A stretch of 64,000 nt of DNA. Source: a virus. The notes below the pieces were generated by a model that had not been told where the DNA came from, made no database searches, and saw only the letters and a list, made by a program, of their open reading frames with translations. The stretch covers positions 54,221 through 118,220 of IMG/VR virus record IMGVR_UViG_3300047322_000252; one strand, 5' to 3'. Of the stretch, positions 4 to 63,964 are shown piece by piece; positions within the stretch are counted from its first letter, which is position 1; every line of letters starts with the position of its first letter. The translations under genes and the position numbers were made by a program.

Positions 4-783
4 GTGGCGGGCACCCTGAGCGGAGTCGGAGACGCTGAGTCTTTCCAGCAGTGGTCAGCCGAGACATCAGCCCAGCACAACGCTTTCCTGGTGGCCTCGG
101 CGTCAGCAAAGCAGGGTGCAGGTGGCTCCAGTGCGGCTGCTGTCACAGCACCGTCCATGGCCGCTGCTGCCGGTGGCTCTCCGGATGCTGTGGGCCTCGA
201 CGTGGTGGGCAAGGCCCTGTACTCCGCAGGCTTCCGGGGTGACGACCTGGTCAACATGATGGCCATCCCCTCCCGGGAGTCCAGCTACGTCCCTGGTGCG
301 CACAACCTGAACCCCAACACTGGAGACGACTCCTGGGGCCTGTGGCAGATCAACGTGGCCCCCGGCGCCAACGGGGCCACCTTGAAGGCGGTCACCGGCT
401 CTGACGACCCCAACCAGTTGACCGATCCCGCCACCGCCGCCCGAGTCGCTTTCGAGATGTACAAGCGCTCCGGTAACACGCTGCGGCCGTGGGGCGGGTA
501 CAAGGGCATGTCGAACACGTACAACGTGAGCGACGATGCCATCGGCGCCGCCCGTTCGATGGCTCAGAGCCTCTGGCCCAGTGGCTACGGCGATCCCTCG
601 GGCGGCGCTAGTGGCAATGGCGGTTCCACCAGCGTGACGCACTCGCCGGTCGTCTTCAATGCCACCTTCAACATCTCGGCTTCGGGCGGTGGCGGCGGGG
701 CCATGGACCTTGACGGCCTGGCCCGGCAACTAGCACCCAAGATCGAGTCCGTAGTCCGTCGAGCAGTAGGGGCCACACGATGA
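4..783 (+). CDS. C-terminal part of tape-measure-type protein with lytic transglycosylase (SLT/lysozyme-like) domain; probably begins upstream of the window
   Basis: RES...GAHN...DDSWGLWQIN...PW motif of SLT-like domains; Ala/Gly-rich; lies directly before the baseplate genes. Confidence 0.75.
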   Translation: MAGTLSGVGDAESFQQWSAETSAQHNAFLVASASAKQGAGGSSAAAVTAPSMAAAAGGSPDAVGLDVVGKALYSAGFRGDDLVNMMAIPSRESSYVPGAHNLNPNTGDDSWGLWQINVAPGANGATLKAVTGSDDPNQLTDPATAARVAFEMYKRSGNTLRPWGGYKGMSNTYNVSDDAIGAARSMAQSLWPSGYGDPSGGASGNGGSTSVTHSPVVFNATFNISASGGGGGAMDLDGLARQLAPKIESVVRRAVGATR

Positions 784-2474
784 GCGTTGATTCCGACATC
801 GGTTCGGGGAGTGATCGCAGCCCGAGCTACAACATCGGAGGGGCACCGCCCTACGGCTGGACGGGTACCCCGGGCTACAACCCCTTCCAGGCTCCCAGTG
901 AGAAGGAGACGTTCGGGGAGGTGGCGCTCTACGAGCGCATGGACTGGACAGGTGGTGTCACTGCCGACGCAGCCCAGAAGGAGTTGCAGAACCCGCCCTT
1001 CATCGGCGTGGGGAGCACCAGCGCCCGGGTTCCGGGGCACATGGCCAACAGCAGCAACCCGGCCATCCCGCACCGCATCCTGCGGGGCTACATGCGCCGC
1101 TTCGACACCAACCCGGCGAGTACTGACAACGCCTCGGACCCGTCGAAGAGCTACAAGGCCCGGCTCTTCTTCATGTGGAACCCCCAGTTCATCGAGCGCA
1201 CGTACGCAGCGCTGGAGGACATCCAGCAGTTCCTCAACCTCACCAACCAGGCCAACGGGCCGGTGAACAATGAGGACACGCAGCCGTACTTGAAGACGGA
1301 GGTGGGCTTCTCTCTGGTCTTCGACCGGCAGGAGGAGGTGAACCGCTTCCCGAACCACCCTGGCTGTCTGGTGGACCTGGCGGTGTTCGACCTGCTGTCG
1401 AGAGGTGGCTCCCCAGCCGGACAGATGACCAAGGAGGCGTTGAAGGCGCTGGACGACGCTGGTGGGACGGTGGCGGGAGGCCCGTCCAGCAAGAGCCTGA
1501 TCTTCAACCCCGGCATCAAGATCGCCGTCATCTTCTCGCCCTACATCGTCTACTTCGGCAACATCATCGACGTGCGGGCCACCTTCGAGAAGTTCTCGCA
1601 CCGCATGACGCCTACTCGTATGACGCTGGACTTGAAGATGCGGCTCTACGCCTTCGGCAGCCTGAACCAGTTGAAGGCCTCGGACCAGGCAGCGGTGTCC
1701 TCTTCAGCTTCAGCAGCGGCATACCAGGCGGGGCCTCTGGGAGCAGTGGACCCCACGACGGTGACGGCCAAGAGCCAGGACGAGAAGGACCGGCTCAACA
1801 TCCAGGGGGCCAGGGACGCCATGTCCTGGGGTGAGCACTGGATCGGCAAGGTCAACTACGAGGCCGGGGCGACCCGGTGTGCGAACGCTGGAGCGGACAG
1901 CTACGACAAGCCGGACTCCAACATCCCGCTGGCCTTCGACTGCTCCAGCTTCGTGGCCCGGTGTTTCTGCGTGATCGGGTGGGGTCCCACACTGGGCATC
2001 GACCCTTGTTCTGACACCAACGGGTTCGAGACAGCGATCAAGAACAACCCCAGCGCCTGGTACGTGTACTGGTTCAGCAACGAGATGATGCGTGCTCAGA
2101 ACAACGGAAGCTCCACCAGCGCTGTGTTCACCGTGCTGACCAGTCAGATCCGGCCCGGGGACTGCATCCTGCGCTCCGGTACCGGCCCCAACGGACACAT
2201 CGCTTTCATCCATGCGGTCATCGAGGCAGGTAAGACCTACGAGATCTTGCATACCAACACCTCGAAGCCGCCCAACAACAAGGTCCACCTGGACACCTAC
2301 ACCCTGGACCACATCGTCAACGGCGACGGCAACAGCATGAAGCCGTACACGCACCTCATCCGGGCGCAGCCCATCCCGCTGGTGAAGCCAGCCGAGCAGA
2401 AGGCTGCCCCGAGCAACCCGGCGCCGCAGATGGTGATGGCCCGGTCCACGATCTCTCTGGCTGGGCGGTTCTGA
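780..2474 (+). CDS. Tail-tube initiator/baseplate protein with NlpC/P60-type peptidoglycan hydrolase domain
   Basis: N-terminal F.WNP..I...Y and F.L.FDR pattern of tube initiators; FDCSSFV (catalytic Cys) and GHIA (His) of NlpC/P60. Confidence 0.65.
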   Translation: MSVDSDIGSGSDRSPSYNIGGAPPYGWTGTPGYNPFQAPSEKETFGEVALYERMDWTGGVTADAAQKELQNPPFIGVGSTSARVPGHMANSSNPAIPHRILRGYMRRFDTNPASTDNASDPSKSYKARLFFMWNPQFIERTYAALEDIQQFLNLTNQANGPVNNEDTQPYLKTEVGFSLVFDRQEEVNRFPNHPGCLVDLAVFDLLSRGGSPAGQMTKEALKALDDAGGTVAGGPSSKSLIFNPGIKIAVIFSPYIVYFGNIIDVRATFEKFSHRMTPTRMTLDLKMRLYAFGSLNQLKASDQAAVSSSASAAAYQAGPLGAVDPTTVTAKSQDEKDRLNIQGARDAMSWGEHWIGKVNYEAGATRCANAGADSYDKPDSNIPLAFDCSSFVARCFCVIGWGPTLGIDPCSDTNGFETAIKNNPSAWYVYWFSNEMMRAQNNGSSTSAVFTVLTSQIRPGDCILRSGTGPNGHIAFIHAVIEAGKTYEILHTNTSKPPNNKVHLDTYTLDHIVNGDGNSMKPYTHLIRAQPIPLVKPAEQKAAPSNPAPQMVMARSTISLAGRF

Positions 2475-2758
2475 TGATCACCGCTGCCTCCCGCTACACC
2501 CAGGGCGAGGCCTTGTGGGTCACCACCAAGGACCCTGACGTGGGCCGGGGCAACAAGCTCACGGTGTTCCTCAACACCGTCACCTACCTCACCAGCCCCT
2601 ACTCCGTGGCGCTGGTGAAGGAGACGGACGACATGAGCCTGTTCGCTTTCACCGCCTACGCCGACCCTCGGCGGTGGTGGGTGATCGCTGATGCCAACCC
2701 GCAGGTGTTCCACCCTTGGGACGCCCGCCCTGGCCAGTCCGTGCGGGTGCCGTCGTGA
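2474..2758 (+). CDS. LysM/gpX-like baseplate protein
   Basis: 94 aa with AY.DP..WW.IADANP motif; position in baseplate module. Confidence 0.7.
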   Translation: MITAASRYTQGEALWVTTKDPDVGRGNKLTVFLNTVTYLTSPYSVALVKETDDMSLFAFTAYADPRRWWVIADANPQVFHPWDARPGQSVRVPS

Positions 2759-3972: not shown

Positions 3973-3973
3973 C

Positions 3974-4366
3974 ATGCAGGCGCTCAGATTCCCCTTCCAG
4001 ATCGACATCTACGGGCACGTCTCTGTTGTAACAACGTACCCGGAGGTCATCCGTGGGCAGTTGATCGACGTGCTGATGACCAACGAGAACGAGCGGGTCA
4101 TGCACCCCACCTACGGCGCCAACATGGAAGCGGCCCTCTTCGATCCCACTGACGTGTTGGTGCAGGCTGATGCAGCCCAGCAAGTGTCTGAGCGGATCAC
4201 CACCTTCGCTCCCCGGGTGAACCTGCGGGACGTCAGGTTCTCTGCGGACCCTCTCCAGCCAGGCAGGCTCTTCGTGGACGTCAGTTACTCGGCCGGGGCC
4301 TTCGATGAGGCTCGCTCTCTGCGCATCCCGGTCGCCAACTTCCTGAGCGAGGAGTCCTCGGTATGA
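3974..4366 (+). CDS. gp25/GPW-like baseplate wedge (sheath initiator)
   Basis: L.FPF...T..NERVMHP.YG motif; GGAGG RBS before ATG 3974. Confidence 0.85.
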   Translation: MQALRFPFQIDIYGHVSVVTTYPEVIRGQLIDVLMTNENERVMHPTYGANMEAALFDPTDVLVQADAAQQVSERITTFAPRVNLRDVRFSADPLQPGRLFVDVSYSAGAFDEARSLRIPVANFLSEESSV

Positions 4367-5856
4367 CCGCACCCATCGAGATGGACTACACGAACAGGGA
4401 CTACGACTCTCTCGTCTCCTTCCTGGTGAGCGCCGCCCGGGGGTTCATGCCCGAGTGGGTCACCGTGGGCGAGACAACCGACTTCGGAACTTTGTTGTTA
4501 GAACTGTTTGCTTACGTCGGAGACGTGACCAACTACTACATCGACCGGGTCGCTGCCGAGCCGTTCCTGGCCACTGCCCAGCGTCGTCAGAGCGTCCTCG
4601 GCATAGCCGACATGCTGGGGTACACCCCCATCGCCCAGCAGGCTGCCTCGGGCATCGTCACCTTCACCCTGGACGACACCGCCTACCTGAACAGCACCAC
4701 CACCATCCCGTCAGGGACCGTGGTGCAGACGGGCCAGAGCGAGGGCCAGGGGGCCGTCTTCTTCGAGACGACCACCAACGCCTACCTGGGCCAGTCGGTG
4801 CGCACCGCTGACATCGGTGTGAACGAGGGCCGCACCATCGCCACCGAGTACGTGGCGATCTCCAACGGCGCCCCCATGCAGGAGTACGTGCTGATGAACG
4901 CCGGGGTGATCCACCGCAGCACCCGGCTTTACGTGCAGGAGACGGACACCTCCGTCATCGAGTGGAGCTACGTGGACAACCTGGTGGTGGCCGACCCCGA
5001 CGCCTCGGTGTGGACCACCTACCTGGACGACCAGCAGTTCCTGCACATCGTCTTCGGAGACAACGTGGCCGGGCGCATCCCGCCCAACGGCGCTCAGGTC
5101 ACCTGCTCCTACCGCTACGGCGCCGGGGCACGAGGCAACGTGGCCGGGGGCACCATCACCCAGATCACACCACCGATCGCTGGCGTGAGCGTGGTCAACG
5201 CCGCCGACAGCCCCTGCAACGGCGGCGCTGACAACGAGTCGATCGACCAGATGCGCTACTCGATCCCCCGAGCGGCCAAGCTCCGGGACCGGGCCATCAC
5301 CCTCCAGGACTTCGCAGACCTGGCCCACCAGGTACCCGGTGTGGCAAAGGCCACAGCAACGGGCCAGTTCTACACGAACATCAAGGTGTACATCGCCCCG
5401 GTGGGCGGGGGCTACCCCTCGGTTGACCTGCGGGCAGCGGTGGACACCTACCTCACCGAGCGGGCCTTGGTGGGCACCGCTGTCGATGTCCACCCGCTGA
5501 GCACTTCCGAGCAGTTGTATCAACAGATCCACCTGGCGCTCGACGTCCACGTCCGCAAGGAGTTCGGCCAGTTGACCGTGGCCAATGGCGTGCGGGACGC
5601 CATGACCGCCCTCTTCGCCTTCGACTCCTCGGACTTCGGCAAGTTCTACTCCCAGGGCGACGTGTACCACGCTGCGCTGGCCGTCACCGGGGTGGACTAC
5701 ATCGTCTTGAAGGCCATGCAGTTCTACGCCGCCGACAACAGCACCCTTGTGGCTCCCGCCATCGGTGACCTCACGGCCAGCCCGATCCTCATCCCGCTGC
5801 TCGACACCACCGACACGATCAAGTTCGTGCTCACCCCCATCGGGGGCCTGACGTGA
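4363..5856 (+). CDS. Baseplate J/gp47-like wedge protein
   Basis: DYT.RDYDSL, D.G..LLELFAY, FGD...GRIP, GGAD.ES, RA.T..DF motifs. Confidence 0.9.
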   Translation: MTAPIEMDYTNRDYDSLVSFLVSAARGFMPEWVTVGETTDFGTLLLELFAYVGDVTNYYIDRVAAEPFLATAQRRQSVLGIADMLGYTPIAQQAASGIVTFTLDDTAYLNSTTTIPSGTVVQTGQSEGQGAVFFETTTNAYLGQSVRTADIGVNEGRTIATEYVAISNGAPMQEYVLMNAGVIHRSTRLYVQETDTSVIEWSYVDNLVVADPDASVWTTYLDDQQFLHIVFGDNVAGRIPPNGAQVTCSYRYGAGARGNVAGGTITQITPPIAGVSVVNAADSPCNGGADNESIDQMRYSIPRAAKLRDRAITLQDFADLAHQVPGVAKATATGQFYTNIKVYIAPVGGGYPSVDLRAAVDTYLTERALVGTAVDVHPLSTSEQLYQQIHLALDVHVRKEFGQLTVANGVRDAMTALFAFDSSDFGKFYSQGDVYHAALAVTGVDYIVLKAMQFYAADNSTLVAPAIGDLTASPILIPLLDTTDTIKFVLTPIGGLT

Positions 5857-7436
5857 CGGACTTCCGCCCCTTCACCATCCGGCGCACCATCGGCGGCGAC
5901 GTCGTCCGCTCGACCGCTGGATGGCACGGAGCGCTGCGGTACGGCCCCGTCCAGGTCCCGTTCGACATCGTGGACGGGACCACTCTCGACGGCATGCCCA
6001 TCGGGTATGACACTGGCCTCGTCACGGTGCGGATTCCCCCCACCGTGCCGTGGGTTGAGGCGGTACTGGTGCGGGGTGCCTTCGGGCCTCCCACCACACC
6101 GCTGGACGGGGTGCCGGTCTGGTACGAGGAGGGCCACGATCCTCACGACCCGGACCAGTTCAGCCAGATGGTCATGGACACGCCGCTCACCGGGGGCTAC
6201 TGGTATTACTACACGCTCTTCCTGTACTTCGGCTCGCCCCCCACCTGGCTGGCTGCGGCCACCGTGGCGCTGCTGGTGCCCCGCAACTACGGCACCGCCG
6301 AGAAGCTGTTCAGCCTGATCCCGCAGTTCTACCAGTCCACCGACGATCAGCAGGCGGCTGACGGGCGCAACGGACCGCTGCGGAAGTTCACGGCCATCCT
6401 GGGTTATGACAACGACTACGAGCGCACGCTCCTCGACGGCGTGCTCAACGTCTACGACCCGGACCGGGCGCCCTTGAAGTTCGTCCAGCTACTGGGCACC
6501 AACCTGGGCCTTCCCATCGAGCAGGCCCTCGGCGGCGCTCGCTACCGCACCCTGGTGGGTGGCCTCACCCAGCTAGAGGACCTGCGGGGTACCTCCATCG
6601 GCCTGGAGGCGTTCATCTACGCCGCCAGCAACTACCGCTGTGATGTGACAACGGGAGGAAACTCCCTGCTCACGCCGGACGACGCCGAGTTCGTGAATGG
6701 AGTGGGGCACTGGCAGAAGTTCCTCAACTCTGCTATCACAACATTCCAGAACGCCATCTCCCACGCCACGCCTGCGGTGCCTGGGGACCAGTGGGCCAAC
6801 CTGGTCCTGCGCAAGTACACCGGCAACGCCAGCCCGCCCATCCCTCCGGTGCCCAGCGCCGGGCAGGGGATCATGGAGATCATCGATCTGGCGACCACGC
6901 ACCTCTACACCGACTTCGTCATCGTCTGTGGCCTCAGCCCGACCGGATCTACTGGGGGCCTGCCGGACGCCATCCAGTTCGGCATCCCGGTGCGAGGCGG
7001 GGAACTGTGGGAGTTCAGCTTCAACATGGTCAAGCCCACCGCTGGCCCGACTGCTCAGGTGGTCGCCTCGTGGGTCGCCTACGACACCAACGGCGTCTTG
7101 AAGGGCGTCTACCAGGACGCCACAACCTACGCCCCCAACGGCTACCTGTCCGACACCGGGGCCTGGACCAAGTACCGGATGCAGCACATCATCGCCTCGG
7201 GCGGCGACGGCCTCGTCACCGACCCAGCGGGCGGCATCTGCGGCTACATCATCCCCTGCATCTGGTGGCATGCACCGACAGCCATGACTGCCCGGTACAT
7301 CATGGGGGCCATGCTGACCAGCATCAAGGGCGTGGGTGGGGCCATCGTGCCGCTGCCGCCTGACGTGTACCTGACCCTCGGGTCCACCAAGCTGCTCAAT
7401 AGCCCACAATCGATACTGGGGCCAGATCCGGCATGA
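5853..7436 (+). CDS. Baseplate wedge/tail-fibre attachment protein (gpI-like)
   Basis: L...IP.FY...D, L.KF...G...D and RGT..GL pattern; follows baseplate J. Confidence 0.55.
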   Translation: MTDFRPFTIRRTIGGDVVRSTAGWHGALRYGPVQVPFDIVDGTTLDGMPIGYDTGLVTVRIPPTVPWVEAVLVRGAFGPPTTPLDGVPVWYEEGHDPHDPDQFSQMVMDTPLTGGYWYYYTLFLYFGSPPTWLAAATVALLVPRNYGTAEKLFSLIPQFYQSTDDQQAADGRNGPLRKFTAILGYDNDYERTLLDGVLNVYDPDRAPLKFVQLLGTNLGLPIEQALGGARYRTLVGGLTQLEDLRGTSIGLEAFIYAASNYRCDVTTGGNSLLTPDDAEFVNGVGHWQKFLNSAITTFQNAISHATPAVPGDQWANLVLRKYTGNASPPIPPVPSAGQGIMEIIDLATTHLYTDFVIVCGLSPTGSTGGLPDAIQFGIPVRGGELWEFSFNMVKPTAGPTAQVVASWVAYDTNGVLKGVYQDATTYAPNGYLSDTGAWTKYRMQHIIASGGDGLVTDPAGGICGYIIPCIWWHAPTAMTARYIMGAMLTSIKGVGGAIVPLPPDVYLTLGSTKLLNSPQSILGPDPA

Positions 7437-8665
7437 CCACCTACGTGAACCAGCATCTGTTGTCACATCTGGCGGACGGCTCGCTCAACTTCAACGGGAC
7501 AAACCTAGGTTTAGCCTTGGTTTACAGCTACGCCGTGCCGACTGACACCAGCCCCGACTCCTTCGACCAACTGCTGCTGTCGGGTGGCTTCCAGGAGCTT
7601 GACGCCGCCACCGGCTATACCCGCATCACTCGGACCGCCAACACCCAGGTGACGGCGCCGCTCACCAAGGTGGCGATCGGGGCCGACTACGCATTGACAC
7701 TGACGAAGCCCACCTTCGTGGCTGCTGGTGTCTGGTACCTGGCGGGCAGCCAGGCGGGATTCACCAACCCCTGGCTCTTCGTCACCGACAGCATGTTCGG
7801 CAATGTTGTGTCACCAGGGGCCATCGTCGGCATCGCCGCCACCCCTAAGGTGCTGTTCTCCTACGTGACGCATGGGACCACAGCGGACGTAGCCGGGGGC
7901 ACGGTGGTGCAGTCTCCTGGCCCCACCACGTGGGAGTCGGCCCGCATCCAGCACGTCTACCTCTATCCGCAGCGGGTCAACTTGATTCCGAACCCGAGCT
8001 ACGAAGATGTCGGCGGCTTCGGGTGGCGCTCAGATGCTGCCATCGCCAGGGTTCTGGGTGGTGTGGACAAGCCTGCGTCCAACTACTTCGGCCGGGCGGC
8101 GGGCAAGGTGGTGCAGTCTCTCTCCATCCCGACCCAGGGCCGCATGCGGTTCTCGGCCTACGTGCGCAAGGGCACCGGCACCAAGATCACCCTGAGTCTC
8201 GTGTGTCTGGACGAGACATACAGCGTGCTCACCACCGTCCAGGGGCATCAGCGGACGTTGTACAGCGACTGGGCACGGTATGACGACCTCCTGGCGCCCT
8301 CCGACGACTGTGTGGCCGTGATCCCCCAGATCATCTCGGACGGGTCCTTCGACTTCGACCTGTGCCTGCTGGAGGCCACCGACCCCCTCCACGACTACTT
8401 CGCCGGGGACTCCGACACCGGGGCGCCCTACGACTTCTCGTGGCAGGGCCAGGCCCACCAGTCCTACTCTTGTTATTACAACAACCGCCATGTGACGGCA
8501 GCACGCCTGTTCGGGGGCTATTTCAACGGCCAGATGACCTTGCCTGGCCTCGTGCAGGACTGGATTCCCACTGGCACGGCAGTGTACACCCACTGGGATG
8601 TGCTGAGTATGACGGATACTGGGCACCCCTTGAAGGACTGGTCACCCAAGATCTTCGTGCCGTAG
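7433..8665 (+). CDS. Minor tail protein with carbohydrate-binding-like domain
   Basis: RVNLIPNPS.E and YF.GD motifs typical of actinophage minor tail proteins. Confidence 0.55.
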   Translation: MTTYVNQHLLSHLADGSLNFNGTNLGLALVYSYAVPTDTSPDSFDQLLLSGGFQELDAATGYTRITRTANTQVTAPLTKVAIGADYALTLTKPTFVAAGVWYLAGSQAGFTNPWLFVTDSMFGNVVSPGAIVGIAATPKVLFSYVTHGTTADVAGGTVVQSPGPTTWESARIQHVYLYPQRVNLIPNPSYEDVGGFGWRSDAAIARVLGGVDKPASNYFGRAAGKVVQSLSIPTQGRMRFSAYVRKGTGTKITLSLVCLDETYSVLTTVQGHQRTLYSDWARYDDLLAPSDDCVAVIPQIISDGSFDFDLCLLEATDPLHDYFAGDSDTGAPYDFSWQGQAHQSYSCYYNNRHVTAARLFGGYFNGQMTLPGLVQDWIPTGTAVYTHWDVLSMTDTGHPLKDWSPKIFVP

Positions 8666-8964: not shown

Positions 8965-9840
8965 ATGCTCTATGCCATTGCCGGAAACGGCGTAGGCCCC
9001 AACGCCGAGATCACCAAGGCTCTCGCAGATCTCAAAGCGAAGGCCACGGCTGACGGGGTTGACTTCTGGCTCCTGCTGGAAGCGAAGGACGAACCCACCA
9101 AGGCTGACACCGTCATCTATGAGTGGGCCAACAAGACCGAGACGTGGTTCGAGACGATCACGGCCACTGACGCTGCCGTCGAGGGCGCTCAGACGGCTGA
9201 GCAGAACGAAGACCCTCACGGACGGATGTTGGAGCGCATCCTGGAGATCCGTGGGGCCGCTGAACCGGAGGACGGCTCCGTCCTGGTTCTTCTTCCCCCC
9301 GATGACGCCGACGACGATGAGCCGCTGATGGCCCTCATCGAGAACGCCATCGACTCCGACGTCGAGGTCTTCCAGTTGAACGGGGCCATGAGCAAGCTGA
9401 GCCTCGGGGAGGCCGAGGAGGAAGGGGATGCCGAACCAGTGGCTGCTGAGCCGGTGAAAGGTGCCACCAAGAAGGCAGGGGCGGCGAAGAAGGCGGCGGC
9501 TCCTGCTGCTGCCCCCACCAAGAAGGCAGCCGCCAAGAGGGCTGCGGCCCCCACCGCCGAAGATGTCGTAGCTGCGGTCGAGGAGCTACCTGAGGCTGTT
9601 GTGTACACAGAGGACGAACTGAAAAAAATGGGCGTCCCCGAACTCACCGGCATCGCACGAGGTCAGGGCATAGATACGAAGGGCCTCGGCAAGCGGGACC
9701 TGATCACGGCCATCATGAACCTCACCGAGGGCGAGCCGGAGGCCGTCGCTGCTGTTGTGTCAGCAGTCATGACCAATGGCGACGACGACGTGATCGTCAT
9801 CATCATCCCCCGGTCCAAGATCGTCGGCCTCCTGGGATGA
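8965..9840 (+). CDS. Hypothetical protein with Ala/Lys-rich histone-like linker and C-terminal Rho-N/HeH-like helical motif
   Basis: GGAGA RBS before ATG 8965; KKAGAAKKAAAPAAAPTKKAAAK; ELKKMGVPELTGIARGQGI...KRDLITAI. Confidence 0.6.
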   Translation: MLYAIAGNGVGPNAEITKALADLKAKATADGVDFWLLLEAKDEPTKADTVIYEWANKTETWFETITATDAAVEGAQTAEQNEDPHGRMLERILEIRGAAEPEDGSVLVLLPPDDADDDEPLMALIENAIDSDVEVFQLNGAMSKLSLGEAEEEGDAEPVAAEPVKGATKKAGAAKKAAAPAAAPTKKAAAKRAAAPTAEDVVAAVEELPEAVVYTEDELKKMGVPELTGIARGQGIDTKGLGKRDLITAIMNLTEGEPEAVAAVVSAVMTNGDDDVIVIIIPRSKIVGLLG

Positions 9841-11633: not shown

Positions 11634-11765
11634 GGTGCCTTTCCTTTCGTAGGCTTCGGTTTCTACACCCTCGGCCTCGCAGGAGTCAACAAGAAGCCCC
11701 ACATTGACTTCTTGATGGGCCGTATGGCATGTATGCAACAGAACGAGCATTGACACTGACATGAA

Positions 11766-44297: not shown

Positions 44298-44342
44298 GCA
44301 CAGTGTCAGTGTCAATGGTCCGGATGTTGTAGGTTCGGAGCC

Positions 44343-50311: not shown

Positions 50312-50413
50312 CAGCCACGCCATCACCACGAACAGTGCTATGACAACAGTCAATGTCAATGCGTCTCTGAGCATGTTCCCGCCCTCCCAGTTGAGCCGAG
50401 CTACGCTACCGCC

Positions 50414-51874: not shown

Positions 51875-53206
51875 GTGACACGTCTCTACTTCGCTGGCGC
51901 CGAGCAGCCCTCGCATCGCAACCTGCTGAGTGACTGCGGCGTCGAGCGCTTCGCCATCAACCTGACCAACATCAACCGCACCGTGAGCGGCGCTTGGAAC
52001 GTCTTCGAGCACCTGCCTCCAGGAGCGGAGTGGATCGCCTACGCCGACGAGCAGACCACGTGGGAGATGGCCGAACCCTTCGTGCGCCAGGAGCCGTTGC
52101 TCACCCTGGGGCCACTGGAGTGGCACACGCACTTCGAGGACGAGACGGCCTTCGCCCCCTTCTACCAGGTGGGCCTCCAGGGCTGGACGTTCCCCACGAT
52201 CGCCCTGACGGACGACAACGTGAAGCACCAGAACGTGCTGCGGTCGATCCTGGCGGGCTACCGGGGCAACGCCCTCGTGGCCGTCACCGGGTCGAGCAAG
52301 GGCGGTGTGGAGCGCTTGGACGCTCTCGTCACCAGCGCCTGGTTCGCCGCTCAGCGCTTCGGAGAGACGCAGGTGTGGGGAGGAACCAAGCTGCATCGCT
52401 ACGCAGGCTCACGCAAGGCTGAGGCCCGTCCCAAGCACCGTGCCGACATCGAGCGGCTGGGCATCGACTACCGGCTGATCGAGGCCGACGATCCCGAGGA
52501 AACGGCCCGCCTCGCTGTTGTGTCATGGCTCGCCTGGGAGGAACGCCATGCTGTGACAGCACCGAACCTCCTCTCGCTGTCAAGCACAGAGGAGTACTCG
52601 GATCAAGACGGGATGGGATCGGCGCACGTGGGCCTTGCCAGCGTCACCTCCAAAGCCCGGCACGATCGAGAGCAAGTCCTGCTGCCGGTGATGGGCTTGG
52701 AAGACCACGAGGAGCGGACGGTTGACGGCGAGGGCCGGGAGACGGTCACGACGCATCAGTCGGTCCGAGGTGTGGGCGAACTCATGCGCTCGTGTGACTC
52801 GTGCTTCCTGGCCCCGAGGTGCCCGGCCTTCCAGCCTCAGCACACGTGCGCCTTCAAGATCCCGGTCGTGATCAGGAGCAAGGACCAGCTACAGGGCCTC
52901 ATGCGGTCCGTGATCGAGATCCAGGGCCAGCGGGTGCTCTTCGCCCGGTTCGCAGAAGAGATTGAGGGCCAGGGCCTCAACGGCGACCTCTCGGCCGAAA
53001 TCGACCGGCTGTTCAAGAGCCTGGCAGCGATGAAGGACATCAACGACACCCGGGACGTGCTCCGGCTAGAGCTAGAGGCCAAGGGCAACAGCGGGATGCT
53101 GTCCCGTCTGTTCGGCGCCGATGTCGGCAACACGGCCAAGGCCTTGCAGGCTCCCCTGCACTCTGATCAGGTCTTGGACGCCTTCGAGCGCACTCCGCAG
53201 CATTGA
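51875..53206 (+). CDS. Multidomain phage protein: LYFAG-type N-terminal domain, Cys cluster CxxCxxxxxCP..C, helical C-terminus
   Basis: Leaderless TAGCCT, 7 nt, GTG; CDSCFLAPRCPAFQPQHTC. Confidence 0.65.
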   Translation: MTRLYFAGAEQPSHRNLLSDCGVERFAINLTNINRTVSGAWNVFEHLPPGAEWIAYADEQTTWEMAEPFVRQEPLLTLGPLEWHTHFEDETAFAPFYQVGLQGWTFPTIALTDDNVKHQNVLRSILAGYRGNALVAVTGSSKGGVERLDALVTSAWFAAQRFGETQVWGGTKLHRYAGSRKAEARPKHRADIERLGIDYRLIEADDPEETARLAVVSWLAWEERHAVTAPNLLSLSSTEEYSDQDGMGSAHVGLASVTSKARHDREQVLLPVMGLEDHEERTVDGEGRETVTTHQSVRGVGELMRSCDSCFLAPRCPAFQPQHTCAFKIPVVIRSKDQLQGLMRSVIEIQGQRVLFARFAEEIEGQGLNGDLSAEIDRLFKSLAAMKDINDTRDVLRLELEAKGNSGMLSRLFGADVGNTAKALQAPLHSDQVLDAFERTPQH

Positions 53207-54709: not shown

Positions 54710-55068
54710 CAGGGTGTCTTTCTCGGTATCAGGGGTTTGTGTTCAGGTTCTGAATGAAGTGTACCACGCCCCCAGCACCTGTCATGGGCCAAACGGCCCA
54801 ATAACGGCACTCTCTGATGTGACAACGGTCACACCTTGTTGTCAACACAGTGTGACGGCGTGGGGACCGGGACCGGGGTGGCGGAACCCCACAATCCCTG
54901 ACCGCTGCGGGGTCCCAGGACACAGGCGGCGGGAGCCTGCGCCCCTTCCCGCTTGCGATCGCCAACCCACGCCGTCACGGTTCAGGACCCTAACAATGGT
55001 CGATGCCCTGGTCAAGAATCTGACCAGGGCATCTGTGGGGCTTCGGGTGCGGGTCCTTCCCGCCTGTC

Positions 55069-55470
55069 TCACGCCTTGACGATCTTCCGCTTCGGCTTGG
55101 CCGGGGCGCTGGTCCGCTTGGTGGCAGGTTTCGAGCCATTGCCATTGACACTGGCCTCTTCCCGAGCCGCCTTGATCGAGCGCAGGCTGGGGGACTTGGT
55201 CACGCCACGCTCCGAGGTCTGGTCCTCATGCTTCTGCACGACGACGTAGCCGTCCTCGGTGATCCGGACCCGGACCTTCAAGCCACGCCGGTTGGCCGAC
55301 GTGCGGACGACCCGTTCCAGTGAGACAGCGGGACCATCGAAGTCCTCGCCCGGGTGCAACTCATGGATGCGGCCATCGAACCACTCGGACCAGGGGTACG
55401 AGCGGCTGCGGGGTGTAGCGCTGTTCCTGGACACGAAGGTCCAGTCGAAACTCTTCAAGACGGTGGACAT
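55069..55470 (-). CDS. Small basic protein, putative DNA binding
   Basis: YPW.EWFDG....L..GEDF; AAGGAAGG RBS; basic tail. Confidence 0.65.
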   Translation of the reverse strand: MSTVLKSFDWTFVSRNSATPRSRSYPWSEWFDGRIHELHPGEDFDGPAVSLERVVRTSANRRGLKVRVRITEDGYVVVQKHEDQTSERGVTKSPSLRSIKAAREEASVNGNGSKPATKRTSAPAKPKRKIVKA

Positions 55471-55511: not shown

Positions 55512-55545
55512 AGTGTAGCAGGTCGTTGTGAGAACACAACGTCAC
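55512..55545 (-). promoter_or_regulatory. Promoter GTGACGTTGTG-N11-ACCTGCTACACT (copy 1)
   Basis: Same flanks and spacing as 58027-58060; TG-extended TACACT -10. Confidence 0.65.
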
Positions 55546-59226: not shown

Positions 59227-59300
59227 AACTGTCACAACAGTTCTCACAACAGTCCGTTTGGCCTACATACCGAGGCCTAAGAATGAGGTACGATTCTCCC

Positions 59301-60993: not shown

Positions 60994-62315
60994 ACAAGGT
61001 GACCAGGAGGGCGCTCCTAGCGGGCACCCTCCTGGGCCTCACACAGATCGCTGGCGACAGAGTGTTACGGTTCTGCTGCATGAGCGACCTGCAACCTGTC
61101 ATCGATGACCTGCGCAAGCAGGCATCAGCCATCAGTGCCTCGGCGGGCGTGATCAGACAGCAGGCCACCAGCATGGATGCCGCTGCTGCGGCCATCAATG
61201 CCGACGCCGACAAGCTGGCTGCCGCTCCCGTCACCCCACCTACTCCCATCGAGCCGCCGCCTGTCACCGGCACGCAGACTCTCGGACAACGCTTCGGGGC
61301 GTTCTCCATGCCGCTGGAACAGGTGCAGGGTGTGACCCAGGCCTTCATCGACCAGCAAGCCGACCTGATCAAGGAATCGGGCGCCGGGTGGTGGCGGGGC
61401 GACTACCCCATCCGCCAGGTGTATCCGACCAAGGGCGGCGCCTACCAGTGGGCCGACACCGACCGCTGGGTGTTGGCGGCGTTGAAGCGTGGTATCAAGC
61501 CGCTGCCCATCCTCTACATGCTTCCGGCTCACATGGTGGGCACGCCCTACAACGACAAGAACCAGCCCACCAATGACAGCGAGTGGGCCGACGTCATCAC
61601 CGAGTGCTGCAAGCACCTGTGGTCCCTTGGTGTCACAGCAGTCGAGACGTGGAACGAGGCCAATCTGTCCGGCTTCTGGACCAACGCCGCCAGTACCGAC
61701 GACGCCTACCGGGGCAAGTACACCCGCATGATGAAGGCGGCGTACCCCAAGATCAAGGCGGCGGTGCCCAACATGGTGGTGATCGTCGCCGGGCTGAGCA
61801 CGGCTGACACCGTGTGGGGCGCCACGCAGCAGCCCAACCCTCCGGGCTGCGGAGCGCTGAGCACGATCAAGAGTTACGCCGACAAGGGCATGTTCTCCAA
61901 CTGCGACGCTCTCGGCTGGCACCCGTACCTGGACACCGACTACCCCTGCAAGGACGTGGGCAACTGGCCGTCCTGGTCGCCCAAGGCAGTCAAGGCGGCG
62001 CTGGACATCATCGACGCTGCCGCCCCTGGCCGGGGCATCAGTCTGTGGACCACCGAGACAGGCTGCCCGAGGTCGGCGGTGGGCGGAAGTCAAGGCACGC
62101 AGTCACAGCGGGCCAAGGACGCCCTCAACGCCTACATGCCGGGCGGTTGTCTCAACGCCTACCAAGGGCGCCTGGGTCCGTTCTTCTGGTTCTGCATGAT
62201 CGATCGCAACACAGGCGACGGTCGAGAGGACAGCTTCGGGTGGGTGAACCGCTCCGGGGGCAAGTACCAGGTCTTCGCAGACATGAAGACCGTGTTCGCA
62301 CAGGCCTGGGCATGA
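60990..62315 (+). CDS. Clan GH-A glycoside hydrolase (GH5/GH39-like)
   Basis: WWRGD, E.WNEAN acid/base, WHPY, W.TETG nucleophile, F.F...D; start 60990 or 61080. Confidence 0.8.
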   Translation: MNKVTRRALLAGTLLGLTQIAGDRVLRFCCMSDLQPVIDDLRKQASAISASAGVIRQQATSMDAAAAAINADADKLAAAPVTPPTPIEPPPVTGTQTLGQRFGAFSMPLEQVQGVTQAFIDQQADLIKESGAGWWRGDYPIRQVYPTKGGAYQWADTDRWVLAALKRGIKPLPILYMLPAHMVGTPYNDKNQPTNDSEWADVITECCKHLWSLGVTAVETWNEANLSGFWTNAASTDDAYRGKYTRMMKAAYPKIKAAVPNMVVIVAGLSTADTVWGATQQPNPPGCGALSTIKSYADKGMFSNCDALGWHPYLDTDYPCKDVGNWPSWSPKAVKAALDIIDAAAPGRGISLWTTETGCPRSAVGGSQGTQSQRAKDALNAYMPGGCLNAYQGRLGPFFWFCMIDRNTGDGREDSFGWVNRSGGKYQVFADMKTVFAQAWA

Positions 62316-62458
62316 GCGAGCAGCCGGGCCAGGAGATCTACTACCCGGAGGTTGACCCGAACAGGCCCAAGCCACCGAGGCCCAATCCGCCCCTGGACCC
62401 GTACCCGCACCCCGGCACGCTGGTGCAGAAGCACCTGGACGCACCGCCGCCTGGTTGA
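62312..62458 (+). CDS. Pro-rich 48-aa peptide
   Basis: ATGA coupling; followed by a terminator-like hairpin. Confidence 0.4.
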   Translation: MSEQPGQEIYYPEVDPNRPKPPRPNPPLDPYPHPGTLVQKHLDAPPPG

Positions 62459-62482
62459 CACAACAGCAGGGCCATTGACATT

Positions 62483-62521: not shown

Positions 62522-62631
62522 GTTCCCGGAGGTCAAGCCAGGAGAGAGGTCAACGTAGCAGGTCACACCACGAGCACGAATGGTCCGTTCGACCCATGTT
62601 CGGTACCCTACGAATGACTAGAGTATGAAGC

Positions 62632-63318
62632 ATGGAAGAGGGAGGACTCGACGGCAGTAAGCCTTCGCCAGGGAGCGCTCCCGACGCTGGCCCAACCCGC
62701 CCGGTGAAGCCGGGTGGCCTCCCTCTTCCTAACCTTCGCCACTACGGGCACCAGGTCATCGCACCGACCTACACACGCACGTTCTTCGCTGTGCTGAGTG
62801 GTGCCACGACTGTGCAACAGGTCGCCGCCATCGTCGGTCTGAGTGAGACGACGACCAGCAGCCACTTGAAGCGCCTGCGAGGCCTGGGCCTGATCGACTG
62901 GACCTACACGGCCCGCAACCAACGAGGCGTGCGCATCCTGCGCTCCTGCGTGGAGTCAGTGCCGTTCAACAACGAGCGAGGCGAGGACACCATCGCCATC
63001 GTTCTCGCCAGCGAGGACGGCCAAGAGTTCTCTGACGTAGCACCCCTGGTCCGGCCGGTCGAGCCGACCATCACCAACGTGCGAGAGCTACGCAAGGGTG
63101 ACGTGCTGACGCTGGAAGGTCAGGACTACCCGGTCAAGGAAGTGCGCATCGGCCAGAAGGCCAAGCGTGCTGCCATCCGCCTGGGCATCCCCGATGGGGA
63201 GTGGTGGTACAAGCCGCCGCTGGACCAGCCCATCACCGCTGTGCGGACGCACGAGGCCCAGCGCCGCATCAGCCAAGCAACCGAGGCCCGAGACGGGATG
63301 TACCGCTATGGCCGTTGA
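62632..63318 (+). CDS. Winged-helix (ArsR-like) DNA-binding protein with extra C-terminal domain
   Basis: TVQQVAAIVGLSETTTSSHLKRLRGLGLI; leaderless TAGAGT. Confidence 0.7.
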   Translation: MEEGGLDGSKPSPGSAPDAGPTRPVKPGGLPLPNLRHYGHQVIAPTYTRTFFAVLSGATTVQQVAAIVGLSETTTSSHLKRLRGLGLIDWTYTARNQRGVRILRSCVESVPFNNERGEDTIAIVLASEDGQEFSDVAPLVRPVEPTITNVRELRKGDVLTLEGQDYPVKEVRIGQKAKRAAIRLGIPDGEWWYKPPLDQPITAVRTHEAQRRISQATEARDGMYRYGR

Positions 63319-63964
63319 GGCCGTTCTCACCATCGACTGCGACGGCAACGTAGCCCTCGTGGTCACCAACAACACCACCCAGGGCTTCACCGGCCAGTAC
63401 GCCACCGCATCCTCGTGGATCGGTGACGCCAGCGTGGCCGCTGGTGCATCACGCACCATCACCGCCCACATCAACGGCCTGAACCCCACGGTGGCGGGCT
63501 ACGTGCGGGGCAAGCTGGACGATGGCACGCCGGTCAGTACCACGTTCAGCGGGACCAAGGAAGGCACCTGCGCTCCGTACATTCCACCGACCACGGTGGT
63601 GGACCTGACGCCCAAGCCGGTGCCTACCACGACACCCGGTCAGACCGTCGTCTACTGCCAGGTGCCTGGGTCCAACCCGCCCATGAGCGTGCCTTGTGAT
63701 GACCCCAGGGCCACGCAGCCGTACCAGCCCCCTACCACCGCCCCTGTTGTCACAACGCCTGTCACAGAGGCACCTGTGGCGTCTGAGGCCCCTGTGGTGG
63801 TCACTGGCCCGCCCCGCACGCACCAAGCTGTGGTGCATGCCGTCCCCGCAACACTCCCGGCGACGGGTCCTGTTCTTCTCGGACCCGAACTGGCGATTGC
63901 CGGACTATGCGCAGCCATCGGCGCTGCCTTCATTCGACTCACTCATCGACGTGCCAACCCCTGA
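63308..63964 (+). CDS. Pro/Thr-rich protein with LPXTG sortase-type anchor
   Basis: LPATG followed by a hydrophobic helix and RLTHRR basic tail. Confidence 0.7.
   Translation: MAVEAVLTIDCDGNVALVVTNNTTQGFTGQYATASSWIGDASVAAGASRTITAHINGLNPTVAGYVRGKLDDGTPVSTTFSGTKEGTCAPYIPPTTVVDLTPKPVPTTTPGQTVVYCQVPGSNPPMSVPCDDPRATQPYQPPTTAPVVTTPVTEAPVASEAPVVVTGPPRTHQAVVHAVPATLPATGPVLLGPELAIAGLCAAIGAAFIRLTHRRANP

What the first reader, a model, noticed from the sequence alone, without database searches (positions are those of the whole stretch)
138..63757. Genome-wide 13-bp palindrome (TGTTGT-N-ACAACA) written into coding sequence about once per kb
Seen: about 46 sites with <=2 mismatches, starting at 138, 2007, 4024, 4493, 5513, 6641, 6731, 7458, 7804, 8471, 9753, 15447, 16527, 18225, 18967, 19551, 20121, 20610, 24954, 25858, 27248, 31592, 32951, 33956, 36608, 37570, 37867, 38760, 39859, 40858, 41134, 41495, 42558, 43605, 44290, 46226, 49897, 50336, 52549, 54815, 54837, 55524, 59239, 61628, 62453 and 63745, plus about 17 with 3 mismatches. 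A rough base-composition estimate, assuming about two-thirds GC, predicts fewer than 1 site with <=2 mismatches in 64 kb. Most copies lie inside structural, replication and accessory genes, where they force A/T-ending codons (GTT, ACA, GCA) in otherwise C/G-ending sequence. I found no perfect copy, which could mean affinity is tuned below maximum. Established: cluster A mycobacteriophage stoperators are 13-bp dispersed repressor sites, but they are asymmetric and mostly near gene boundaries. Inference: a dimeric protein binds along the whole genome, for silencing, condensation, protection from host defences, segregation or packaging. I do not recognise this as a described system.
Basis: partly seen in the sequence, partly recalled or inferred. 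Interest (0 to 1): 0.9.

Follow-up and report, generated by a model that had tools for sequence, protein, structure and literature searches.

The report
Genome-wide 13-bp palindrome in a phage
A soil phage that probably infects actinobacteria has written a 13-base palindrome into its genes about 80 times by choosing rare synonymous codons, and the best copies sit on its early promoters, so it is most likely a genome-wide array of binding sites for one regulatory protein that is not yet identified.

Summary
TGTTGT-N-ACAACA with at most 2 mismatches occurs 48 times in the window, against 1.19 expected. It occurs 81 times in the whole 118,220-bp phage genome.

- **Not a coding artefact.** Coding regions hold 54 sites, against 2.4 ± 1.3 in synonymous-codon shuffles. 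Of the 34 places where the protein sequence allows at most 1 mismatch, 21 carry a site. Two relatives without the motif use 0 of 36 and 1 of 28.
- **Promoter copies.** The best copies, including the only perfect one, lie outside the window at genome 1-12 kb. There they overlap the -35/spacer of a repeated early-promoter module.
- **Relatives.** A relative (G004) carries the motif mainly at a fixed distance from the -10 box of its early promoters. Three closer relatives share the dispersed form at mostly different positions.
- **Host.** The motif is not enriched in the 406 Actinomycetota genomes searched.

Best reading: an operator for a dimeric DNA-binding protein, expanded into a genome-wide site array. 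The binder is unidentified. The closest described analogue is the 17-bp repeat of Cluster O mycobacteriophages. The scan had noted this motif only in an overlapping window of this same genome.

The parts
138..150 (.). site TGCTGTCACAGCA, 2 mismatches, in CDS, frame nnT-GYT-GTS-ACA-RCA
2007..2019 (.). site, 2 mismatches, in CDS 780-2474
4024..4036 (.). site TGTTGTAACAACG, 1 mismatch, in CDS 3974-4366. Peptide SVVTT, where relatives have ATTTD/AETTD
4493..4505 (.). site, 2 mismatches, in the baseplate-wedge gene 4363-5856. LLLEL is conserved in relatives, which use CTG CTG CTG GAG where this phage uses TTG TTG TTA GAA
5513..5525 (.). site, 2 mismatches, in the baseplate-wedge gene
6641..6653 (.). 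site, 2 mismatches, in CDS 5853-7436
6731..6743 (.). site, 2 mismatches, in CDS 5853-7436
7458..7470 (.). site, 2 mismatches, in CDS 7433-8665
7804..7816 (.). site, 2 mismatches, in CDS 7433-8665
8471..8483 (.). site TGTTATTACAACA, 1 mismatch, in CDS 7433-8665
9753..9765 (.). site, 2 mismatches, in CDS 8965-9840
15447..15459 (.). site, 2 mismatches, in CDS 15098-16012
16527..16539 (.). site, 2 mismatches, in the helicase gene (PHROG 62)
17631..17643 (.). site, 2 mismatches, in CDS 17623-17967.
18225..18237 (.). site, 2 mismatches, in the large minus-strand gene 18045-21074
18967..18979 (.). site TGTTGTGACAAGA, 1 mismatch, same gene
19551..19563 (.). site, 2 mismatches, same gene
20121..20133 (.). 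site, 2 mismatches, same gene
20610..20622 (.). site, 2 mismatches, same gene
23990..24002 (.). site, 2 mismatches, in the DNA polymerase I gene.
24954..24966 (.). site, 2 mismatches, in the DNA polymerase I gene
25858..25870 (.). site, 2 mismatches, in CDS 25706-26062
27248..27260 (.). site, 2 mismatches, in CDS 26287-27357
31592..31604 (.). site, 2 mismatches, in CDS 31308-31613
32951..32963 (.). site TGTTGCGACAACA, 1 mismatch, in CDS 32616-34373
33956..33968 (.). site, 2 mismatches, in CDS 32616-34373
36608..36620 (.). site, 2 mismatches, in CDS 36567-37055
37570..37582 (.). site TGTTGCGACAACA, 1 mismatch, in the 1016-aa gene 37052-40102
37867..37879 (.). site TATTGTCACAACA, 1 mismatch, same gene
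38760..38772 (.). site, 2 mismatches, same gene
39859..39871 (.). site, 2 mismatches, same gene
40858..40870 (.). site TGTTGGCACAACA, 1 mismatch, in CDS 40095-40982
41134..41146 (.). site TGTTGTTAGAACA, 1 mismatch, in CDS 40982-41401
41495..41507 (.). site, 2 mismatches, in CDS 41439-41993
42558..42570 (.). site, 2 mismatches, in CDS 42100-42999
43605..43617 (.). site, 2 mismatches, overlaps the start of gene 43609-43893
44290..44302 (.). site, 2 mismatches, at the end of gene 44085-44297. A copy of the second motif starts 2 bases further on
46226..46238 (.). site, 2 mismatches, intergenic
49897..49909 (.). site, 2 mismatches, in CDS 49787-50311
50336..50348 (.). site, 2 mismatches, intergenic, abuts a copy of the second motif at 50348
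52549..52561 (.). site, 2 mismatches, in CDS 51875-53206
54815..54827 (.). site, 2 mismatches, intergenic. Forms a pair 22 bp apart with the next site
54837..54849 (.). site, 2 mismatches, intergenic, second of the pair
55524..55536 (-). promoter-type site. On the minus strand it reads TGTTCTCACAACG-N6-TACACT (-10-like box at 55512-55517), upstream of gene 55069-55470
59239..59251 (.). site, 2 mismatches, intergenic, after a terminator-like hairpin and upstream of the Ku gene (59301-60095)
61628..61640 (.). site, 2 mismatches, in CDS 61080-62315
62453..62465 (.). site, 2 mismatches, at a gene end. A copy of the second motif starts 9 bp downstream, followed by a hairpin
63745..63757 (.). site TGTTGTCACAACG, 1 mismatch, in CDS 63308-63964. 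Peptide PVVTT, one of only 4 places that could encode a perfect site
62704..63318 (+). candidate binder: 204-aa winged helix-turn-helix protein (HTH_5, 28.7 bits). Found only in this genome among the six compared
21965..22390 (+). weak candidate: 141-aa MerR-like protein (18.6 bits, below the cut-off). Conserved also in relatives that lack the motif
55069..55470 (-). 133-aa gene of unknown fold with a basic tail, driven by the promoter-type site at 55524. It has homologues in G004 and G002

Best explanation
The 13-bp palindrome is the recognition site of one sequence-specific DNA-binding protein, probably a dimer and probably phage-encoded. Its primary, ancestral role is as an operator that overlaps the -35/spacer of the phage's early promoters, where a bound protein would block RNA polymerase. 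In this phage and its three closest known relatives the site has then been multiplied throughout the genome. Selection on synonymous codons has installed a copy at most places where the protein sequence allows one. The whole chromosome therefore carries about one medium-affinity site per 1.5 kb. These secondary sites would load the same protein along the entire phage DNA, for silencing by roadblock, for compaction or for protection.

Shown: the enrichment, the selection at synonymous sites, the promoter context, and the conservation of the motif with turnover of its positions.

Inferred: that a protein binds, that it represses, that it is phage-encoded, and what the intragenic copies do.
For: 1. 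**Enrichment.** 48 sites against 1.19 expected in the window, and 81 in the genome. It is the top palindrome in a de novo scan of G000 (81 against 1.19) and of G001 (19 against 0.59).
2. **DNA-level selection.** 54 coding sites against 2.41 +/- 1.28 in synonymous shuffles. 21 of 34 synonymous 'opportunities' are used, against 0 of 36 (G003), 1 of 28 (G002), 8 of 36 (G004) and 5 of 16 (G001), while the number of opportunities is similar in all genomes. 35 of 54 coding sites use the frame that places N at a wobble base. 20% of all ACA codons lie in sites.
3. **Each half is read as sequence.** There is no excess of compensatory mirrored mismatches: 2 observed, 2.5 expected.
4. **Promoter context.** Sites at genome 1113, 3272/3295, 4475, 5561 (the only perfect one), 7068, 7919 and 109744 lie 5-7 bp upstream of TAnACT-type hexamers. 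Three of these hexamers are 7-8 nt before an ATG. Six of the units sit inside a repeated module that begins with CCGAAnnnCCYA. The background rate of such a hexamer beside a random coding position is 0.6%.
5. **Relatives.** In G004, 10 of 11 clustered sites lie 11-12 bp upstream of a TANNNT box, TACACT in most, and are oriented towards the downstream gene.
6. **Density, not position.** The dispersed form recurs in three further relatives. Of the 26 G000 coding sites that could be aligned to a relative, none has an orthologue with at most 2 mismatches, and one has 3.
7. **Host.** 0-1 sites with at most 1 mismatch in each of five Actinomycetota genomes. In 401 more, the largest count is 20 (control 24) and the best excess is 14 against 2 in 1.7 Mb. 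The 118-kb phage has 24.
Against: No binder is identified. The Pfam-detectable DNA-binding genes of G000 are three ribbon-helix-helix genes, one winged helix-turn-helix gene and one MerR-like gene.

- None of the ribbon-helix-helix or winged-helix genes has a detectable counterpart in G004, which uses the same motif.
- The MerR-like recognition helix of G004 resembles that of motif-less G002, not that of G000.
- A profile candidate (the 104-aa protein at genome 26134-26448) has homologues in IMG/VR loci without the motif.

The promoters are read by eye and by a TANNNT regular expression. The tool's E. coli-type -35/-10 scan found 1 promoter-like site in genome 1-12.1 kb, with 1.0 expected, and none of mine. 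'Early' is inferred from gene content, not measured. A repressor bound inside late structural genes would seem counter-productive in a phage with no detectable integrase, resolvase or ParB. Gene calls are from my own simple caller, and at least two 'coding' sites (3272 and 7068) are really promoter sites. The distance from motif to -10 differs between G000 (5-7 bp) and G004 (11-12 bp).
Confidence: 0.55

Rival explanations
1. The sites are read by a host protein, not a phage protein. The phage either uses a host regulator at its early promoters or uses its replicating genome as a sponge that titrates a host DNA-binding protein (a repressor or a defence factor) away from the chromosome.
For: No phage-encoded DNA-binding family tracks the motif across G000, G001 and G004 against G002, G003 and G005. 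An identical motif in phages that share only 61-69% capsid identity would follow simply from a shared host. Saturation of synonymous opportunities fits a function that depends on copy number.
Against: The motif is not enriched in 5 + 401 Actinomycetota genomes. The true host is unknown, and a local regulator needs only a few chromosomal sites, so this is weak evidence. Small early phage proteins diverge fast, so a failure to detect a shared phage binder is also weak.
Confidence: 0.2
2. The sites serve a DNA transaction rather than transcription: phage-specific marks for packaging, recombination, replication priming, segregation or condensation, or protection from an exonuclease (Chi-like).
For: Density rather than position is conserved, as for Chi or uptake sequences. 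The phage encodes a Ku homologue, so DNA-end handling matters to it. Cluster O phages, which have an analogous repeat, also encode Ku and a ParB-like protein (PMC4351075, passages read).
Against: No ParB N-terminal domain is found in G000. The best copies sit at a fixed distance from -10 boxes in two lineages, which is unexplained by this view. Chi-like and uptake sequences are also abundant in the host chromosome, which was not seen in those searched. From recall, known Chi and KOPS motifs are asymmetric.
Confidence: 0.15
3. The palindrome acts as a nucleic-acid structure, either a cruciform in DNA or a hairpin in mRNA, and not as a protein site.
For: It is a perfect 6+1+6 inverted repeat and, being palindromic, appears in every transcript that crosses it.
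Against: A 6-bp stem with a 1-nt loop cannot fold, and the alternative 5-bp stem with a 3-nt loop is A/U-rich and weak (inference, not computed). Mirrored mismatches are not compensatory: 2 observed, 2.5 expected among 57 two-mismatch sites, and 6 against 7.7 among 63 three-mismatch sites.
Confidence: 0.03
4. It is a by-product of amino-acid and codon usage, or of chance.
For: 35 of 54 coding sites encode x-V-V-T-T-like peptides.
Against: Synonymous shuffles give 2.4 sites, not 54. Relatives with as many suitable peptides have 0-1 sites.
Confidence: 0.01

Closest known systems
17-bp dyad-symmetric repeat of Cluster O mycobacteriophages (5'-TGTTCGGNNNCCGAACA; Cresawn et al. 2015, PMC4351075; section 8 and passages read)
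   Same: An actinobacteriophage carries tens of copies of a short palindrome spread over the whole genome, partly inside genes (11 of 34 in Corndog). The repeat is absent from the host genome. The authors proposed a dimeric binding protein, and the function is unknown. Both motifs begin TGTT and end AACA, and both phages encode Ku.
   Different: Here the motif is 13 bp, not 17. Copies are degenerate (1 perfect of 81) where the Cluster O copies are invariant. Two thirds lie inside genes, not one third. The strongest copies are clearly tied to promoters, whereas the Cluster O authors thought a transcriptional role unlikely. The phage is unrelated: megablast of a 12-kb piece against the phage collection found nothing, and the capsid protein is named N4-gp56-family by its sources.
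Stoperators of Cluster A mycobacteriophages (abstract of PMC9283540 seen in a search listing; other details recalled)
   Same: One operator at the early lytic promoter plus many further copies of the same site across the genome, thought to act on transcription at a distance from promoters. The site is 13 bp.
   Different: Stoperators are asymmetric and are bound by a monomeric repressor (abstract). From recall, they are oriented with transcription, are mostly intergenic, and belong to temperate phages. Here the site is symmetric and mostly intragenic, and no integrase, resolvase or ParB was found.
Classical phage operators that overlap a promoter (lambda, P22 Arc/Mnt, CopG-type 13-bp pseudo-symmetric elements; recalled)
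   Same: A short palindrome over the -35/spacer of early promoters. A 13-bp element with a central base pair fits a single ribbon-helix-helix dimer, and the phage encodes three such proteins.
   Different: Classical operators occur a few times per genome and are not written into structural genes.
parS/ParB, Noc or SlmA-type dispersed palindromes (recalled)
   Same: Palindromic sites spread over a replicon that load a protein which then spreads or bridges.
   Different: No ParB N-terminal domain is encoded. The motif length and sequence differ from the 16-bp parS (recalled).

Membership tests
Cluster A stoperator system | Asymmetric 13-14-bp site read by a monomeric repressor | tested here: not met
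   The site is a symmetric 6-N-6 palindrome, and both halves are equally conserved in the count matrix. The family feature is taken from the abstract of PMC9283540.
Cluster A stoperator system | One copy at the early lytic promoter and many more dispersed over the genome | tested here: met
   About 8 promoter-type copies and about 70 others.
Cluster A stoperator system | Sites mostly in short intergenic gaps and oriented with transcription (recalled) | tested here: not met
   54 of 81 sites are inside coding sequence. A palindrome has no orientation.
Cluster A stoperator system | Temperate phage with an immunity repressor | tested here: inconclusive
   No Phage_integrase, Resolvase, ParB_N or HTH_3 match in six frames. 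A repressor of another family cannot be excluded.
Cluster O 17-bp repeat | Sequence TGTTCGG-N3-CCGAACA, with invariant arms | tested here: not met
   The motif here is TGTTGT-N-ACAACA, and only 1 of 81 copies is perfect.
Cluster O 17-bp repeat | More than 30 dyad-symmetric copies genome-wide, some inside genes, absent from host genomes | tested here: met
   81 copies, 54 of them in coding sequence. Not enriched in the 406 Actinomycetota genomes searched. The true host is unknown.
Promoter operator of a phage repressor | The site overlaps core promoter elements | tested here: met
   In G000 the motif ends 5-7 bp before TAnACT. In G004 it ends 11-12 bp before TANNNT, in 10 of 11 clustered sites. 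The promoters are inferred from sequence only, and the E. coli-type scan did not call them.
Promoter operator of a phage repressor | A cognate DNA-binding protein encoded by the phage | tested here: inconclusive
   Candidates exist but none co-occurs with the motif across relatives.
parS/ParB-type centromere or spreading system | A ParB N-terminal domain protein is encoded | tested here: not met
   No PF02195 match at E <= 1 in six frames of G000.
Chi / uptake-sequence type over-represented words | The same word is abundant in the host chromosome | tested here: inconclusive
   Not abundant in the 406 genomes searched, but the host is unknown.

The most novel reading that the evidence does not exclude
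The intragenic copies are not regulatory. The phage has saturated its own coding sequence with a phage-specific word so that its whole chromosome is distinguishable from host DNA by one protein. That protein may be a phage protein that coats, compacts or shields phage DNA from nucleases or defence systems. Alternatively, the replicating genome may act as a high-capacity sponge that strips a host DNA-binding protein from the cell. On this view the promoter operator is the ancestral seed from which a 'self-marking' array evolved stepwise, weak in G004, moderate in G001 and near saturation in G000.
Probability: 0.2. Interest if true: 0.8.

Novelty: new variant of a known kind. Interest (0 to 1): 0.6.

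Why it matters
Genome-wide arrays of short operator-like sites are known in two groups of actinobacteriophages. Only the Cluster A stoperators have a worked-out function, and the Cluster O repeat has stood unexplained since 2015.

This phage lineage gives a graded natural series. Two relatives have no motif. One has it mainly at early promoters. One is moderately dispersed. This phage uses 62% of its synonymous opportunities. The series shows that the array grew out of a promoter operator and that what is selected is site density, not site position.

It also gives a quantitative handle, the fraction of synonymous opportunities used. This could be applied to other phages to find such arrays and to ask what they are for. 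If the array marks phage DNA as self, or titrates a host factor, that would be a new layer of phage-host interaction. If it is a set of roadblock sites, it extends the stoperator idea to symmetric sites and to a phage without recognisable lysogeny genes.

Tried and rejected
**Chance or codon artefact.** Rejected by dinucleotide shuffles, synonymous and codon-order shuffles and the comparison of opportunities across relatives.

**Hairpin or cruciform.** Rejected for lack of compensatory mismatches.

**Internal promoters.** Rejected. Only 3 of 54 'coding' sites have a TANNNT box at +5 to +9, and by context two of these (3272, 7068) are real promoter sites that my gene calls covered.

**Enrichment near gene 5' ends.** Not seen: 11 of 54 within 160 nt, about 14 expected. 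This is my own tally.

**Search for the binder.**
- Pfam or PHROG scans of about 80 proteins.
- Six-frame family searches: ParB_N, Phage_integrase, HTH_3, Resolvase, RHH_1, Arc, HTH_5, Lsr2 and HTH_17.
- tblastn and blastp profiling against G001-G004.
- An alignment of the MerR-like protein.
- IMG/VR look-ups with three candidates.
- ESM Atlas for two unknowns.

No candidate tracks the motif.

**Close relatives.** DNA polymerase as a single query found no close relatives in IMG/VR. Megablast of 12 kb against the phage collection found nothing.

**Sequencing runs.** 24 rhizosphere or soil runs hold the stretch. No RNA holder is listed, and all are kept as contigs. The four laid runs gave contigs almost identical to the window. 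There was therefore no population variation to test purifying selection, and no information on molecule ends.

**Metagenome records.** Those behind L092, L093, L099 and L102 are not held by the genome search.

**Literature.** A search for the exact 13-mer found only an unrelated paper that holds the string. A search on Streptomyces phage repeats found nothing beyond the Cluster O paper. Supplementary files were not opened.

**Structure and complex prediction.** Not used, because they could not link a protein to this site.

Full report
**What the window is.** The window is bases 54,221-118,220 of a 118,220-bp IMG/VR virus record. The record is rated complete and has direct terminal repeats. The exact end overlap is 127 bp, and GC content is 0.648.

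It is a tailed phage. It encodes baseplate wedge, DNA polymerase I, helicase, terminase, portal and a major head protein. Sources name the relatives of the head protein 'N4-gp56 family'. The nearest isolated phages are Streptomyces phages, at about 32% polymerase identity.

Several observations point to an Actinomycetota host:
- a WhiB-like gene;
- -10 boxes placed 7-8 nt before an ATG, which suggests leaderless genes;
- capsid relatives inside Streptomyces, Nonomuraea, Actinomadura, Terracoccus and Kitasatospora contigs.

The host itself is unknown. Twenty-four rhizosphere or soil runs hold the phage.

**The observation.** TGTTGTNACAACA with at most 2 mismatches occurs 48 times in the window. 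Dinucleotide shuffles gave a mean of 1.19 and a largest value of 6.

The whole genome has 1 perfect site, 23 with one mismatch, 57 with two and 63 with three. Conservation stops sharply at the 13 bp, apart from a mild C/G preference at the flanking bases. In a de novo scan of 6-mer inverted repeats with 0-4 bp spacers, this is by far the most over-represented palindrome: 81 observed against 1.19 expected from base composition.

**It is selected at the DNA level.** I called genes with my own codon-usage caller: 183 genes, 90% coding. On these calls, 54 sites lie inside genes, 7 overlap a gene edge and 20 are intergenic.

Shuffling synonymous codons within each gene (300 times) gives 2.41 +/- 1.28 sites, with a largest value of 6, against 54 observed. 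For at most 1 mismatch the figures are 0.23 against 14. Thirty-five of the 54 use the frame nnT-GTT-GTS-ACA-ACA, which puts the free central base at a wobble position and encodes x-V-V-T-T. GC3 is 0.847, yet 39 of 197 ACA codons, 19 of 159 GTT and 4 of 16 TTA lie in sites that cover 0.56% of codons.

I then counted the places where the amino-acid sequence would allow a site by synonymous change alone.
- Only 4 places allow a perfect site, and 3 of them carry a 1-mismatch site.
- 34 places allow at most 1 mismatch, and 21 of them (62%) carry a site with at most 2 mismatches.
- Relatives have similar numbers of such places but use few: G003 0 of 36, G002 1 of 28, G004 8 of 36 and G001 5 of 16.

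So the proteins were not reshaped much. The codons were. The absence of perfect intragenic copies is a coding limit, and there is no need to invoke tuned affinity. Some sites did cost amino-acid changes. One example is SVVTT where relatives have ATTTD or AETTD. Others are purely synonymous, such as LLLEL encoded TTG TTG TTA GAA where four relatives use CTG CTG CTG GAG.

**It is read as sequence, not as structure.** Among the 57 two-mismatch sites, mirrored complementary mismatch pairs number 2, with 2.5 expected under independence. Among the 63 three-mismatch sites they number 6, with 7.7 expected. The least variable positions are G2/C12 and T4/A10.

**The best copies are in promoters, outside the window.** Nineteen sites, including the perfect one and 12 of the 23 one-mismatch sites, lie in genome 1-13.2 kb. 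This is a block of small co-oriented genes of mostly unknown function.

At 1113, 3272, 4475, 5561, 7068 and 7919 the motif ends 5-7 bp before a hexamer TACTAT, TATACT, TACACT or TAGACT. At 1113, 5561 and 7068 that hexamer stands 7-8 nt before an ATG. The same holds at 109744 on the minus strand, which is window 55524. Six of these units start with a shared upstream element, CCGAAnnnCCYA.

A TTGTGT-like hexamer sits 17 bp before the -10 box in several units and overlaps the first three bases of the motif. This is my reading. The motif therefore covers the 3' part of the -35 region and the spacer, which is a classical position for a repressor.

Two cautions apply. These promoters are inferred from sequence. 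The tool's E. coli-type scan called only 1 site in this region, with 1.0 expected, and none of mine, because the -35 hexamers match TTGACA in only 3 of 6 positions. Only 3 of 54 'coding' sites have such a -10 box, and two of those are promoter sites that my gene calls had covered. The intragenic copies are therefore not promoters.

**Relatives.** The capsid protein has thousands of relatives in metagenomes, many on contigs of 100-136 kb.

| Record | Capsid identity | Sites with at most 2 mismatches | Control |
|---|---|---|---|
| L008 = L091 | 70% | 8 in 12.5 kb | 0 |
| L009/L010/L092/L093 = G001 | 69% | 19 in 49 kb | 2 |
| L088 | 75% | 2 in 4.2 kb | 0 |
| L089 | 75% | 4 in 3.4 kb | 0 |
| G004 (115.7 kb) | 61% | 26 | 7 |
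| G002 | 64% | 2 | 1 |
| G003 | 62% | 2 | 2 |
| G005 | 62% | 0 | 1 |

The first four rows are the dispersed-motif lineage. Their sites are mostly at positions different from those of G000. One site just upstream of the capsid gene is shared with L088 and L089. Of the 26 G000 coding sites that could be aligned to a relative, none has an orthologue with at most 2 mismatches.

The other capsid-related loci show nothing above control. Prophage-like loci in Streptomyces and other genera have 0-1 sites.

G004 is informative. Its 4 perfect copies and 6 copies of TGTTGTGATACCA cluster at 60.5-73.5 kb. Ten of 11 clustered sites lie 11-12 bp upstream of a TANNNT box, TACACT in most, and face the downstream gene. 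A second palindrome, TGATAC-N4-GTATCA, lies over the -10. G004 also uses 8 of 36 intragenic opportunities.

The series runs from none (G002, G003) through promoter-centred (G004) and moderately dispersed (G001) to near-saturated (G000). It suggests an operator that was progressively multiplied.

**Host chromosomes.** Five Actinomycetota genomes that carry capsid relatives have 0-1 sites with at most 1 mismatch, with reversed-pattern controls of 0-5. In 401 genomes sampled across the phylum, the largest count is 20 (control 24) and the best excess is 14 against 2 in 1.7 Mb. Three unpublished genomes in that sample contribute one match each. The phage has 24 such sites in 0.118 Mb, at least 25 times denser.

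**Who binds?** G000 encodes the following DNA-binding candidates:
- three ribbon-helix-helix proteins, at 11740, 16191 and 25615 (minus strand). The first lies just downstream of a 640-bp non-coding stretch with four sites;
- a winged helix-turn-helix protein, at window 62704-63318;
- a weak MerR-like protein, at window 21965-22390;
- a WhiB-like protein.

None tracks the motif. No RHH_1, Arc or HTH_5 match was found in G004 or G001. The MerR-like protein is present in motif-less genomes, and its recognition helix in G004 resembles that of G002. A 104-aa zinc-ribbon-like protein is present in G000, G001 and G004 only. However, its homologues occur in three IMG/VR loci with no sites. No ParB_N, integrase, resolvase, Xre-type HTH or Lsr2 was detected. 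The binder therefore remains open, and a host protein cannot be excluded.

**Comparison with what is known.** The closest described case is the 17-bp repeat TGTTCGG-N3-CCGAACA of Cluster O mycobacteriophages. Corndog has 34 invariant copies: 14 intergenic, about 10 near gene starts and 10-11 inside genes. The repeat is absent from the host, and a dimeric protein was proposed but no function is known (PMC4351075, section 8 read). Those phages also encode Ku and a ParB-like protein.

Cluster A stoperators share the logic of one operator plus many dispersed copies. They differ in being asymmetric and bound by a monomer (abstract of PMC9283540). From recall, they are also oriented, mostly intergenic and found in temperate phages.

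The present case differs from both in four ways. It is degenerate, it is mostly intragenic, it can be shown to sit near the coding limit, and it can be traced to a promoter operator in a relative. I file it as a new variant of a known kind and not as a member of either family. No paper in the library holds the exact 13-mer in a relevant context.

**Verdict.** The feature is real, strongly selected and conserved in a lineage. It is most likely a protein-binding array that grew out of an early-promoter operator (confidence 0.55). The function of the intragenic copies is unresolved. Interest is 0.6.

Noticed in passing
window 3126-62474 and genome-wide (for example genome 1064, 1976, 3673, 6974, 11139, 13151, 17833, 65969, 96234, 107422, 116694): A second dispersed motif, ATTGACAYTGACA, has 34 copies with at most 1 mismatch. 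Twenty are intergenic and 14 are inside genes. Several lie at gene ends just before a terminator-like hairpin, and several lie within 30 bp of a palindrome site. It co-occurs with the dispersed palindrome in G001 (9 copies). G004 and G002 have none and G003 has 1. Other first-stage notes describe it (e1-6167005, e1-6166996, e1-6166982).
   Followed up: partly
genome 3246, 3688, 4450, 5536, 7043, 7895 (outside the window; L005): The early-promoter module begins with a shared element, CCGAAnnnCCYA, 12-14 bp upstream of the palindrome. At 7895 the element is the top of a GAAA-loop hairpin flanked by two palindrome sites. A related CCGTTTGGCCTAC stands after the site upstream of the Ku gene (window 59253).
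   Followed up: partly
genome 11100-11740 (L005): A 640-bp non-coding stretch follows a strong terminator-like hairpin (11175-11204). It holds four palindrome sites, many GTCACA/TGTGAC words and several long inverted repeats, and lies just upstream of a leaderless Arc-like ribbon-helix-helix gene with a TACAAT box. It may be an origin or a control region.
   Followed up: partly
window 59301-60095: A Ku70/Ku80-like gene (Pfam Ku, E 3.7e-13), conserved in G004 and G002. A GT4 glycosyltransferase (window 60451-60993) lies two genes downstream. Ku is also found in Cluster O mycobacteriophages.
   Followed up: no
genome 16391-16606 and 13378-13611 (L005): An Acb2/Tad1 hairpin-domain protein (E 6e-21), which is an anti-CBASS/anti-Thoeris sponge family, and a WhiB-like protein, both in the early block.
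   Followed up: no
G004 60.5-73.5 kb (L168): The relative G004 has a second palindrome, TGATAC-N4-GTATCA, with 14 copies at 1 mismatch or fewer. It lies over the -10 box of the same early promoters that carry the 13-bp motif, so each promoter has two operators.
   Followed up: partly
genome 13,166-22,974: A 9.8-kb stretch without a single site with at most 2 mismatches, in a genome that averages one per 1.5 kb. It covers the rest of the early block and part of a minus-strand block.
   Followed up: no
L191, L193-L195, L199, L200, L202, L205-L208, L210-L216: Capsid relatives (45-67% identity over the best segment) sit inside large chromosomal contigs of Streptomyces, Nonomuraea, Actinomadura, Terracoccus and Kitasatospora. 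Some members of this capsid family may therefore be prophages or domesticated elements. None carries the motif.
   Followed up: no
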